DNA of 64,000 bases from Octopus vulgaris (lineage: Eukaryota). Position numbers and translations under genes: made by a program. Shown piece after piece: positions 47,881-53,572 of the stretch. Within the stretch, counting starts at the first letter, position 1. Each line of letters starts with the position of its first letter. The notes under the pieces were generated by a model. That model ran no database searches, was not told where the DNA came from, and was given only the letters and a program-made list of their open reading frames with translations. The stretch is from NCBI GenBank assembly GCA_951406725.2, contig OX597814.1, positions 56,234,001 through 56,298,000 of the forward strand, given 5' to 3'.

Positions 47881-48232
47881 CATCATCATCATCATCACTT
47901 AGCGTCCGCTTTCCATGCTAGCATGGATTGGACAGTTCAACTGGGGTCTGGGAAGCCAGAAGGCTGCACCAGGCCCAGTCTGATCTGGCAATGTTTCTAT
48001 GGCTGGATGCCCTTCCTAACGCCAACTACTCCATGGGTGTAGTGGGTGCTTTTTACGTGCCACTGGCACAGGTGCCAGATGAGTCTAGCAAACGACCACG
48101 ATTGGATGGTACTTTTACGTGCCACCGGCACGGGGACCAGGTGAGTCTGGCAACGGCCACGAATGGATGGTGCTTTTTACGTGCCACCAGCACGAGGCCA
48201 GTCAGGGCGGCACTGGCAATGGCCACGTTCGT
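47881..48232 (-). mobile_element. RTE LINE 3'-UTR fragment abutting a SINE B head
   Basis: Close match to 8838-9130, with three TTTTACGTGCCAC modules. Confidence 0.88.
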
Positions 48233-48434
48233 TTGTACAGTAAAAATATTACAACTAAACCAGATTAACTTCACCCTCACTCTCTAACTCTGTATTAACT
48301 TCTCTTTATCATCCAGGTTCTTTTTTTAAATACATCCAGAAATCACTATTTGTATATATTTGCAAAACAGTCTTTGCCCTGCAGTATTCCAATGTGGGTC
48401 TCATTTGAGCTTTCGAGAGGGTTAATAGTTAAAG

Positions 48435-49150
48435 TGTGGATGAAATATATTGGCTGGCCCTGAAAAGGTAGACTATTCGCTTTGTGATGCCATTTTTGAT
48501 ATGAAGAGTATATGCATTCATGGCTTAGATCCTCACTGATGGTGATGCCTTACATTTGTTATGACATTAAAGGTTCTAGTCGCATGTTGCTCACATTAGA
48601 TGTGTGGGAGATAAGACATTTCCTACATAAATGTAGAAATCGTATCTATGCTGTTGAAGGGACAAGATTGGCATGACTCCATTGGGACATGTTTACAAAA
48701 CCTTTGTTCCTAGAATCAGTAATATTCTGTCATTTCATCATAGTTCAAGATGTCTAGGTTGCATATGGATGACATTTGGCTGCAAAAGGTTAGAGAAGAA
48801 TGAAGAGTGATATCATTTGTGTAGGAATGGGTGTTTTTGGCAGTGATAACTCAAAGTTTGCTGATGTATTGGAGGAACACTGCAGAACACAAAATTGAAG
48901 CTTGAATCACAAAACCCAATAGAAAACCATTGAGCCAAGAGAAGAAAGTTGAATGGAGCCCATAGGCAAACATCTACCAGATTTGTGTACCACAATTGAA
49001 TACCTTTTTGATACTGAATGTAACACAACACTGTTTTCATCAAATTTTGTGAGGACAAGGACCATCAGGTGATTGACATTGGAGAGTAAGTCACCAATAT
49101 ATTTGGCTTTATGAAGGTCATACTTGTAGTCATTGAGGAAGACAGAGAAA
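48435..49150 (-). mobile_element. Heavily decayed CR1/Jockey-group LINE RT remnant
   Basis: Minus-strand pieces VTFSIKKVFN (~ALDISKAFD), AYGLHSTFFSWLNGFL, THSYTNDITLHSS (~YADD), GITISEDLS, LFRASQY. Confidence 0.55.
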
Positions 49151-49425
49151 TTCTAAAGAAATGAGCTTATCCATCTATTTGAGATTATTTAATGACCCTA
49201 CAATATATTTTTATCTTTAGAACCATTCCCTTTTGTTGTGATTATGTCTTTATCACATTTATTGCTAAGCAAAAGAAGCACATCTGTTTTTTTCTTCTCA
49301 GCTTTATAGTCTACTGATAGAGATGTGCTTAAGTATGCTCATTGGCATGGTTTTAGGTATGTTACTAACTAGCAACTAGTAACTACAAATTTGCAAATAC
49401 ACAATTTTTTCATTTGTTATTTCAG

Positions 49426-49535
49426 AATACTTGGCTTTCGCAGGACACCTTTGACAGTGGGCCGTTATTTAAACTTGCAGACTGAGGTTATTCCTGTGGC
49501 AAGTTCAAGATTGTTAGATACATTTTTTTACAAAG
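49426..49535 (+). CDS. FAM20B: FAM20B internal exon (110 nt, phase 2-1)
   Basis: TTATTTCAG|A...AAAG|GTTAGT; (R)[36 protein letters not shown], in frame with both flanking exons. Confidence 0.92.
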
Positions 49536-50220
49536 GTTAGTAAGACTGAATTTCTTTCACCACTTTTCATATTAAAATTTTCACAATAACATGTGTAACA
49601 TGTAGATGTATCTATGTAATGGAAAATAGTTTTTAAACTTCTGCTGCTGTTGTTTTCACTGTCATTGATGCATTGGTAACAACAGTATCAACATTTTTTT
49701 TTATCTTTTAATTCGGAGCTCATGACCTTTCATGGGACCTTCAAGATGAGCTGGGGTAAGGGAGGACTGTATTCTCAAACAAGAGACCTGACCTGAAAAC
49801 TTGTACTCTACTTTGGAACATAATGAAACTGAAGAATTTTAGCTGAGTGAATTTAGCTTATTTTTTTAAGCCTGGTACTTATTCTATCAGTTTCTTCTGC
49901 TGCACCACTCAGTTAATGGGATGTAATCACACTGATCCCAGTTGTCAAGCTGTGGTGGGGAAAAACACAGATACAAAGACGCATTCATATATATATATAT
50001 ATATATATATACATAAATATATATATATACACACACACACACATATATATATATATATCATACATGTATGTAAATTAGAGAAGAACCACCATGTAGCAAT
50101 TCAACAATGATATACTTAAATCATACCATATAGAAAAAAATTAAAAATATGATAAAACATTTACCAAGAACTAAATAAAGTACGAAATAATAAATAAATA
50201 AATAGTATGTAATTAGTAAA

Positions 50221-50300
50221 TAGACTACACTTGTTTTGTGGCTATATTTTCAAATTGATAACAATAAAATCAATTTAAATATAGTCACTCATCAGGTTTA
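50221..50300 (-). ncRNA. Type I hammerhead ribozyme-like motif, long stem II, G12 replaced by A
   Basis: Revcomp TAAAC|CTGATGA|GTGACTATATTT-AAATTGAT-9nt-ATCAATTT-GA-AAATATAGCCAC|AAAA|C-AAGT-G|TA|GTCTA. Confidence 0.7.
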
Positions 50301-50805
50301 AGATAAAAATAATAAAATAATTAAATAAATGTACGTATATTATCTTATAAGAAAATATAAATATGTATAATACGTAATTTTACAATAAAAAAACAAACAA
50401 AATTCAACAATATATCTTAAAATAAAAATATAAAATATCTTATTGAATATATTCTGTTAACTAAATCATTAAACTTAATACGTCGGGCTTAGTGTTTATA
50501 ATAAATTTATCGCATTATAATCGAAAGAATTCCAACTTTGTCTGATTTTCACATTTTATTTATAATCTTTTAATAAATGATACACTATAATGAAATGATA
50601 GAATATTAAATGTCCATTCTGTCAACAAACTGTGACACCAATCACTAATCAACTTAAATAATTTAGTGAAGCCACACACTGATTGGTCAGAATACAGTTT
50701 GCAAAAATTAACATTCTAGAGCCTATAGGAATGTATTTAATGCACACAGTTCAGCCATCTCACAACAGTTGTAAATTGTAAATCATAACTGTCACCACTA
50801 CTACA

Positions 50806-50850
50806 TGAACCTGAAGATTGCATAGTTTAATGCATAAAATTTCTAGTTCA
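50806..50850 (+). ncRNA. Minimal type I hammerhead ribozyme-like motif, G12 replaced by A
   Basis: TGAAC|CTGAAGA|T-TGCAT-AGTTTA-ATGCA-T|AAAA|TTTC|TA|GTTCA; perfect 5-bp stems I and II. Confidence 0.6.
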
Positions 50851-53572
50851 GTCAGAATGGACATTTAATATTCTATCGTTTCATTATATTACATCAATTA
50901 TTAAAAGATTGTAAATAAAACATGAAAATCAAAGTTAGAATTCCTTTGATTAATATATTATTCCATATGCATGCACATATGCACACAATGAGGTTCTTTC
51001 AGTTTCTGTCTACAAAATCCACTCGCAAGGCTTTGGTTGGCCTAAGGTTATAGTAGAAGACACTTGACCAATGTGCTACACAGTAGGAGTAGACTCAAAA
51101 CCATGTGGTTGAGAAGCAACTTCTTATCACACAACCATGCCTGTACCAATTCAAAATTTCTTCCTTTTTCCTTAATAGTTTGGTTGTAGGAAGAAGAACA
51201 ATACCTCTGACCATTTTCAGAGCTGCTGAGGCTGGTGAGAGGAAGTAAGTTATTGTCAGACCTACTTCAAATATTTGCAAAGTTATGAACTTTTACTAAA
51301 TGCACATTAAGGTTAGGTAATGGTATTAAATAGTGTGACAAACTGTCTTCTACCTAAGAATAAGAAAGGTCCTTCAGACAGGCTTCCATACAGTTTCTAT
51401 TTACCAGGTTTTACTAACAAGATGTGGCTGACCCTTGCCCAACATGTCATGAACTTAAAATCATATAGCTCTTAAGTACACTTCATTATCAAAAGGCCAC
51501 CCCTGCACCCTTGTTAAACAATTCTAACAATAAGAATATATGATTTTTTTTCGGTTTCTTTCAGTTTTTCCCTGTTTTTTTTTTTTGTTTTTTTTGGTTA
51601 GACAAATTATCCTTAATTGTAACTTATTAGCGTTGTAAAAGGATGTTCAAAACTTGAAAACAAAATTAATAAATAAAATTTTATTTTTCTCCAGCTAAAC
51701 ATTATTTCATTTTATTGGTCATTAACTTTTATTGGCTGAGATGACAAGACATTAGATGTTTCTGCTAATGTAATTTTAATTATAGCTTTTAAATGGAACC
51801 ATGAATTTTTAGACTTTAATGCCTCTCCTTTATATTTGAAATAAAAAATCTGTTGGCTATGAACAATGAAGTCTAAAAAAAAAAGTTGACAAAACATTTC
51901 CTGTATTTTTTATTATTTTTATTATTGAATTTTGTATGTAAGCAGAGCAAAAATTTAGTTTTCACATTTCAATTTTAAGTGGTACTCATGTGAATTTTTG
52001 TTTCCCCCAGTTTAGTTAGGGCATTCTCATATGAAAGCTGGTTAATAGAACTAGTTTAATGCCATTAATATATTTACCATTTATGATGAAGTTGTTTTGT
52101 AAGAATCAGAACAAATATTTTTTTCTCAGACCACAAACTTTACAGCAACTTTTAGGATAGTGTCACATGAACACTGGATTAGCAGAACTATCAGAGTATT
52201 GGATAAAATGCCTTGTAATATTTTACTAGAATTGTTTGAGTTTACCTTTCATTAAATACCAATTGATGCAATTTATTATGTATATGTAATCATGCCTAAT
52301 TTTAATGTGAAAGCAGTTAAGAATTAAAATCCATTTTACTGAGAGCATGTGAACAGCTACTACTCTATTGGTGATTTTTAAAAGGTTATCAGATAAATTT
52401 GCTCATTTGTTTTCTACTTGGCACTCCATCATCATGTGTGAAAAGAGGTCAAATTTATTCTAATTCCAAGAACGATAAACAAAACTTAGAGGAAGAATAG
52501 AGCTAATAAGAAATTATGATAAAAATATTTTTCATGTTAATTGAAAATAACAATGATTAAAATAATGTCAAAAAAGAAAAAAACAAAAATGAAGTTATCT
52601 AACAACCCAATATTCAAAAAGATTGTTTTGTTATATCTGTACATCTTTTCTGAATTAAGTGTTGACTGGTGCCTTTGAAAAAAATTAATAACATAAGTCA
52701 ATGAAGGAACCTTTGTGTTTGCCTACTGTATAAGGCAGTCAAATTTCCTCTAAATCATACTACTTTCATTAAAAAGGAAAAGGAGGACAAAATGGATCAT
52801 AATTTGTGGGTAAATTGGGTTTAAGTCAGGAAGATTTACACATCAGCTTTATTCTCCCATTTAGGCCTACCTTAAGTAAGAGTCAAGATGAAAACCAGAC
52901 AACTCGAAACTGGCCTAATCGCCATTGAATACACTAGAGGCAGTCTTCCCATGGTAAGGTATCATGTGCTCTTAGTGAGGATTTGATCTCCTCACCTGGG
53001 TTAGTCCACTTGTCATGCTCCTGTTTCTTGAAGCCACATAAGTCAGAGTGGGGTACCAAGAAGATAGCAATGAGAGAGGACTTGTTTTCACTGTATCATG
53101 ACAAACGCATCCACCAAACATGCCATTATTCCTTGAACATTCTATCTACCTCTTACACATTAGTCCATGATATACAAAAAGATGAGATGACTGAAATAAA
53201 CTTTAATCATAGGTTTGTTCAATCAATACTAACCTGTGCTAAGCAACAACAATAATCAACATCCATCTCTCCATCTTCACTGTTATTGATGTTGTTCTTG
53301 AGCTAAGAGTGTAAACATAGTCTTGGTTGAGTGATTAAGAAGTTCACTTTGCAATCATGAATTTTCAGGTTTGATCCTACTGCATGGCATCTTACATAAA
53401 TGTCTTACCATAAACTGATCAGAGTTTTGTGAGTGAAAATGGGTAGACAGAAACAGTATGGAAGCCAATCAGAGGGATTATATATGTAATTCAAAGGTCC
53501 CTTCTTGTCACATATTGTGTTACACTGATTTGGCTTAGGAGCTCTGTTAAGAGTGTATGTGCTTTGGGAATG

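What the first reader, a model, noticed from the sequence alone, without database searches (positions are those of the whole stretch)
50068..50952. Non-coding insert with two divergent hammerheads, nested in a SINE within the FAM20B intron
Seen: a minus-strand hammerhead motif (50221-50300; CTGATGA, ~20-bp stem II, C-AAGT-G stem III, GUA site) and a different plus-strand one (50806-50850; CTGAAGA, perfect stems I and II) point away from each other. There is no ORF, and the insert splits a SINE at its microsatellite, 0.5 kb after an exon. Established: Penelope-like elements carry minimal type I hammerheads in their pLTRs and often insert with inverted segments. Inference: a composite non-autonomous PLE derivative with ribozymes on both polarities; the sense-strand one would cut FAM20B pre-mRNA if active.
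Basis: partly seen in the sequence, partly recalled or inferred. Interest (0 to 1): 0.75.

Follow-up and report, generated by a model that had tools for sequence, protein, structure and literature searches.

The report
Two broken jumping-gene tails, stacked
This intron stretch is the tail ends of two unrelated Penelope-like jumping genes sitting back to back, likely from separate insertions into the same simple-repeat tract, and both of their self-cutting RNA motifs carry a mutation predicted to switch them off, so it is ordinary genomic debris.

Summary
The two hammerhead motifs, the split SINE and the FAM20B-type intron are real, but the insert is not one composite element. It is three pieces. 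A (50060-50523, minus) is the 5'-truncated tail of a Hydra-type Penelope-like family. B (50622-50968, plus) is the tail of an unrelated Neptune-type family, with its usual inverted 3' copy (50518-50621). Both families trace to RT plus GIY-YIG genes elsewhere in the genome. The pairing did not recur: 0 of 29 A loci held B, 0 of 29 B loci held A, and only the window spanned the junction among 40 scored of 609 candidates. Both families put about 70% of their 3' ends into (TA/CA)n tracts, so chance neighbours are expected. Other copies carry complete type I cores with palindromic helix III. Both window copies read AAAA for GAAA (G12A, the general base) and have lost the palindrome, so cutting of the FAM20B pre-mRNA is very unlikely. 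Opposite-strand hammerhead pairs are already in print (PMC4209133). Sequence look-ups in this scan's notes found no earlier report of either family. Verdict: ordinary, interest 0.12.

The parts
49427..49537 (+). Upstream exon of the host gene (FAM20B-type xylosylkinase); GT donor follows at 49538
   Evidence: phmmer best hit 5xom, E 2.5e-6; frame; downstream Fam20-family exons from window 62364
49857..50059 (-). 3' half of the split interspersed repeat (octopus-type SINE; label recalled) including the (TA)n/(CA)n tract at about 49987-50059
   Evidence: uninterrupted copies L059, L016 and L042 map to both flanks
50060..50523 (-). Piece A: 5'-truncated 3' UTR end of a Hydra-type Penelope-like family; 3' end in the microsatellite
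   Evidence: 39 other top places, 86-91% alike, cover only this part; longer copies run upstream into a GIY-YIG frame (L073, L078, L072, L082); 16 of 422 sites differ from the family majority
50221..50300 (-). Decayed type I hammerhead of family A: long helix II, G12A at 50237, loop CAAGTG instead of palindromic CACGTG, helix I mismatch at 50298
   Evidence: intact core in 16 of 29 other copies
50518..50621 (-). Inverted, tail-less copy of the last ~100 nt of family B (no hammerhead); overlaps the 5' end of A by a few bases
   Evidence: 11 substitutions in 100 sites against the other arm
50622..50968 (+). Piece B: 5'-truncated 3' end of a Neptune-type Penelope-like family, with part of its short tail
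   Evidence: 39 other top places, 82-91% alike; RT, thumb, Zn-finger linker and hammerhead in order in L056, and linker, GIY-YIG and hammerhead in L035; Pfam GIY-YIG E 1.4e-8
50806..50850 (+). Decayed minimal type I hammerhead of family B: G12A at 50836, loop TTTC instead of palindromic GTAC
   Evidence: intact core plus palindrome in 19 of 29 other copies
50975..51147 (-). 5' half of the split SINE-type repeat

Best explanation
The insert is the stacked 3' ends of two unrelated Penelope-like retrotransposon families, likely laid down by two separate insertions into the microsatellite of one SINE, and both hammerheads are predicted to be dead. Shown: the family identity of each piece, the coding parents of both families, the microsatellite preference of both, no recurrence of the pair among the loci examined, and G12A plus a broken helix III in both motifs. 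Inferred: a Neptune-type GIY-YIG/RT complex first inserted B with the usual inverted 3' copy at the other end of the break. A Hydra-type complex later primed at the same (TA)n tract, copied 460 nt of its RNA and joined its truncated 5' end to the end of the inverted B copy through a few matching bases. B-before-A is the less certain step (about 0.65). In the parent elements the hammerheads would process tandem transcripts as dimers through the palindromic helix III; here they have decayed like the rest of the copy.
For: No co-occurrence: 0 of 29 A loci hold B and 0 of 29 B loci hold A within 1.5-kb flanks. Only the window spans the junction among 40 scored of 609 candidates; the two hits that overhang it are B ends running into (TA)n. 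Different clades: A's parent has CTCRDKTTC (CxCX5C), CLLC/CKH and DKT; B's parent has CNDSRCSTC (CX4CxxC) and a Pfam GIY-YIG hit. Shared target: 3' ends lie in an alternating purine-pyrimidine tract in 20 of 29 A and 20 of 27 B copies (2 of 29 B had no anchor), against 429 of 2900 flank samples. Each family alone adjoins the same SINE's microsatellite elsewhere (A in L028, B in L055). The 5' end of A abuts non-microsatellite DNA in about 25 of 29 other copies, so a flush joint with B is normal. A rough chance expectation is 0.1-0.9 A-B pairs within 100 bp and 1-9 within 1 kb. Divergence from the family majority is 16/422 for A and 28/395 for B, p=0.043. G12A slows hammerheads more than 500-fold to about a million-fold (PMC2553840).
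Against: Only the best 40 candidates per search were scored, so a rare second composite could be missed. The age gap is weak: the arm-to-arm measure for B (11 substitutions over 200 lineage-sites, 5.5%) does not differ from A's 3.8% (p=0.40), and the majority lines come from the 29 closest copies, with subfamily structure ignored. No microsatellite remains between A and inverted B, which also fits a template jump. No relative was shown to carry B without A at this site. Inactivity is predicted, not assayed.
Confidence: 0.8

Rival explanations
1. One event with a cross-family template jump: at the left end of a break an RT copied 460 nt of A RNA and jumped to the 3' end of a B RNA, while the right end primed on B RNA, giving a one-off Hydra/Neptune chimera.
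For: On the minus strand the tail-less 3' end of B joins the truncated 5' end of A with a few matching bases and no microsatellite between. The ages of A and B are not separable by the arm-to-arm measure (p=0.40).
Against: It needs RNAs of two clades at one site at one time. Flush 5' joints are the norm for A. The majority-based ages differ (p=0.043). Inverted B ends form without A in 4 of 29 other B loci.
Confidence: 0.12
2. A recurring non-autonomous composite element with ribozymes on both polarities, or a MITE-like unit bounded by the 100-nt inverted repeat.
For: Divergent hammerheads and an inverted repeat are present.
Against: No recurrence. The inverted repeat is simply B's own 3' end, and other B copies continue upstream into a coding frame instead. 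Both cores are mutated.
Confidence: 0.03
3. The plus-strand hammerhead is a co-opted intronic ribozyme that cuts or tunes the FAM20B pre-mRNA.
For: It lies in the sense strand of an intron, with helices I and II intact.
Against: G12A and the loop change GTAC to TTTC. No second copy in the window to dimerise with. Even an intact minimal PLE hammerhead showed no cleavage as a monomer (PMC4209133). Its divergence is like that of other copies (7.1%, range 3.0-9.8%).
Confidence: 0.02

Closest known systems
Minimal type I hammerheads of metazoan Penelope-like elements (Cervera and de la Pena 2014, PMC4209133; parts 1-2 of 4 read: abstract, results, discussion, start of methods)
   Same: Type I topology, short palindromic helix III, extra base 5' of helix II in family B, position at the PLE 3' end. 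The paper states that dual motifs occur about 100-700 bp apart on opposite strands and that most motifs are single remnants of truncated PLEs.
   Different: Here the two motifs come from two different clades. Helix II of family A (about 55 nt, 19-22 predicted pairs) is far longer than the 7-8 bp described. Both window copies lack G12.
Hydra clade of C-terminal EN+ PLEs (Craig et al. 2021, PMC8557442; section 11 and passages read, supplements not read)
   Same: CxCX5C linker, DKT, no CCHH, CxxC and CxH around the conserved E and N, canonical hammerhead, (TA)n targets.
   Different: The RWK motif reads RIKWK in the intact sister family. Family A carries a long AT-rich 3' region with an internal ~830-nt duplication. 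No tree was built.
Neptune clade PLEs (same paper, passages)
   Same: [quoted passage not shown]
   Different: Neptune against Nematis was not settled by phylogeny.
Non-LTR retrozymes (PMC7229834, listing only; bioRxiv 10.64898/2026.07.22.740005, listing and passages)
   Same: Non-coding, hammerhead-bearing, PLE-related sequence.
   Different: No tandem monomers and no recurring unit here.

Membership tests
Type I PLE hammerhead, window copies | Invariant core CUGANGA, GAAA and UH | tested here: not met
   both read AAAA
Type I PLE hammerhead, window copies | Palindromic helix III for dimer formation | tested here: not met
   CAAGTG and TTTC
Type I PLE hammerhead, families A and B | Core, helices I and II, and palindromic helix III in other copies | tested here: met
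   A: core in 16 of 29, core plus palindrome in 6 of 29; B: both in 19 of 29; 0 hits in shuffles
Type I PLE hammerhead, families A and B | Self-cleavage | not testable with these tools
   needs an in vitro assay
Hydra-clade PLE (parent of A) | RT followed by C-terminal GIY-YIG | tested here: met
   order in L097; ORFs of 840-862 aa in the sister family L101-L103; the Pfam hit is weak, E 0.021 and under the cut-off
Hydra-clade PLE (parent of A) | CxCX5C linker; CxxC and CxH around E and N; no CCHH | tested here: met
   CTCRDKTTC, CLLC..NE, N..CKH read in L072 and L082
Hydra-clade PLE (parent of A) | DKT in place of DKG | tested here: met
   SDKT in L092 and L101-L103
Hydra-clade PLE (parent of A) | N-terminal RWK motif | tested here: inconclusive
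   RIKWK in the sister family; not seen in A's own broken copies
Hydra-clade PLE (parent of A) | Placement in the RT tree | not tested
   no reference set was held
Neptune-clade PLE (parent of B) | RT, CX2-5CxxC linker, C-terminal GIY-YIG | tested here: met
   L056 and L035 order; CNDSRCSTC in L034; PF01541 E 1.4e-8
Neptune-clade PLE (parent of B) | CCHH motif in the endonuclease | tested here: met
   C-x2-C, H, H read by eye in L034 and L035
Neptune-clade PLE (parent of B) | Tree placement apart from Nematis | not tested
   no reference set was held
Non-autonomous composite element or retrozyme | Recurs as a unit, or as tandem monomers | tested here: not met

The most novel reading that the evidence does not exclude
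The locus records a single retrotransposition in which a Penelope-type reverse transcriptase jumped from a Hydra-clade RNA to the 3' end of a Neptune-clade RNA: a cross-clade template switch that would show how these elements build their inverted and tandem insertions.
Probability: 0.12. Interest if true: 0.45.

Novelty: new member of a known kind. Interest (0 to 1): 0.12.

Why it matters
As found, it matters little: it shows how microsatellite-targeting retroelements pile up in one SINE and can mimic a designed two-ribozyme unit. Two small useful facts remain. Hydra-type PLEs with canonical hammerheads are abundant in this genome, with intact sister ORFs. Family A's hammerhead has an unusually long helix II that short descriptors could miss. 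If the template-jump reading held, it would bear on the open question of how PLEs make inverted and tandem insertions.

Tried and rejected
Rfam scan of 48000-53000 found no hammerhead model, only microsatellite-driven hits; minimal or mutated motifs are not expected to score. A MITE reading of 50518-50952 was rejected because the arm is B's 3' end. Public runs: no RNA holder listed, which says nothing about expression. Contigs laid on the insert at 88% likeness were swamped by other copies. No listed piece bridged either internal junction in any of the 7 different runs laid (X3 and X13 twice), and the piece tables were cut, so presence or absence of the insert in relatives is undecided. Weak hints only, not used as evidence: family A had little or no cover in the two organism-E runs while B was deep, and all four runs had some contig over 50975 beside B's right end. 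Pfam did not recognise the RT fragments or the 36-aa exon. The first count of B 3' ends found an anchor in only 10 of 30 loci and was redone. The 5' junction count is approximate: alignments can overrun into TA tracts (L006, L010). Scan notes: by place, 8 shown of 249, all about other elements (rewired hammerheads, retrozymes); by sequence, nothing relevant. Five paper searches listed no paper on these two families; the supplements of PMC8557442, which list families and their hammerheads, were not read and may name them.

Full report
Observation. The region was read and both motifs were found where stated: a minus-strand motif at 50221-50300 and a plus-strand motif at 50806-50850. The insert has no reading frame of note (longest ATG frame 34 aa, GC 23%). 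It splits an interspersed repeat at its microsatellite: uninterrupted copy L059 maps to 51143-50975 and 50029-49857. The name SINE, and the octopus host, are recalled and come from no call. The exon at 49427-49537 matches the xylosylkinase 5xom best (E 2.5e-6). FAM20B is the xylosylkinase of this family (established knowledge), and Fam20-family exons resume at window 62364 on the same strand, so the insert is intronic, 0.5 kb after the exon.

Anatomy. Searching the genome with the whole insert gave 3642 candidates, 40 scored; apart from the window, every top place covered only the left ~470 nt. The right part gave 1469 candidates, 40 scored, whose main matches covered only 50622 onward. So the insert is piece A (50060-50523, minus), an inverted copy of B's last 100 nt (50518-50621), and piece B (50622-50968, plus). 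Both outer ends are 3' ends.

Parents. Longer B copies run upstream into a GIY-YIG frame (PF01541 E 1.4e-8). RT, thumb, linker and hammerhead stand in that order in L056, and linker, GIY-YIG and hammerhead in L035. The CX4CxxC linker and CCHH-type residues fit Neptune as defined in PMC8557442 (passages); Nematis is not excluded by a tree. Longer A copies extend through an AT-rich region with an internal ~830-nt duplication into a broken endonuclease frame (L073, L078). That frame has CxCX5C, CxxC and CxH, and related RT frames have DKT, the marks of the Hydra clade (PMC8557442 section 11). A sister family about 70% alike in protein keeps open frames of 840-862 aa (L101-L103). The two halves therefore descend from different clades.

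Hammerheads. Among the 29 other copies of each family, the core is intact in 16 (A) and 19 (B), and core plus palindromic helix III in 6 (A) and 19 (B). The descriptor gave no hit in five shuffles of the same 733 kb. The window copies both carry G12A and a non-palindromic loop, and A also has a helix I mismatch. G12 is the general base; G12A costs more than 500-fold in a minimal and about a million-fold in a full-length hammerhead (PMC2553840, passages). Even an intact minimal PLE hammerhead showed no cleavage as a monomer and low cleavage as a dimer (PMC4209133), and the window holds no second B motif. Cutting of the FAM20B pre-mRNA is therefore very unlikely, though untested.

Does the pairing recur? 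No case was found. 0 of 29 A loci held B and 0 of 29 B loci held A within 1.5 kb. A junction query scored 40 of 609 candidates and only the window spanned it; the two overhanging hits are B ends running into (TA)n. These searches are capped, so a rare second copy is not excluded.

Why they are neighbours. 3' ends lie in alternating purine-pyrimidine tracts in 20 of 29 A copies and 20 of 27 B copies with an anchor, against 14.8% of flank samples. A alone adjoins the same SINE's tract in L028, and B in L055. With candidate counts as rough copy numbers, 0.1-0.9 A-B pairs within 100 bp and 1-9 within 1 kb are expected by chance. Divergent hammerhead pairs also arise inside one family through inverted copies: 4 of 32 B loci and 1 of 32 A loci. 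PMC4209133 already reports dual motifs 100-700 bp apart on opposite strands, and PMC8557442 describes the inverted 5' copy and one-sided tail.

Order and rival. A differs from its family majority at 16 of 422 sites and B at 28 of 395 (p=0.043), which suggests B came first. The arm-to-arm measure for B (5.5%) does not differ from A (p=0.40). A's 5' end is flush with the end of inverted B. That fits a later insertion, since only 4 of 29 other A copies have a simple repeat just before the 5' junction (approximate). It also fits a single event with a template jump between clades, which I put at 0.12. Public contigs could not decide this.

Verdict. Real motifs, real Penelope origin, but most likely a one-off stack of two decayed tails. 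The families are new members of known clades and the arrangement is of a kind already described. Interest 0.12. Papers seen: PMC4209133 parts 1-2 of 4; PMC8557442 section 11 and passages, no supplements; PMC2553840, PMC13282606 and bioRxiv 10.64898/2026.07.22.740005 passages only; others as search listings.

Noticed in passing
L024:244-1685, also L020, L021, L070, L073, L078: Family A often carries an internal tandem of about 830 nt: endonuclease end plus UTR without hammerhead, then a degenerate endonuclease end plus UTR with hammerhead, about 70% alike. This two-part unit has spread as such.
   Followed up: partly
L101:1822-4344, L102:1937-4456, L103:2467-5052: Open Hydra-type PLE frames of 840-862 aa; L101 and L103 have a short-stem hammerhead (loop CAATTG) just upstream of the frame. 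Many more long frames are listed, so a sister family may be recently active.
   Followed up: partly
L019, L082, L088: Three further type I hammerhead-like motifs with long helix II (40-58 nt) from unrelated repeats in the flanks.
   Followed up: no
window 51425-51429: Contigs of two related organisms carry about 21 extra bases here that the window lacks.
   Followed up: no
G000:C5:20815603-20818796: A second Fam20-family gene with compact exons.
   Followed up: no
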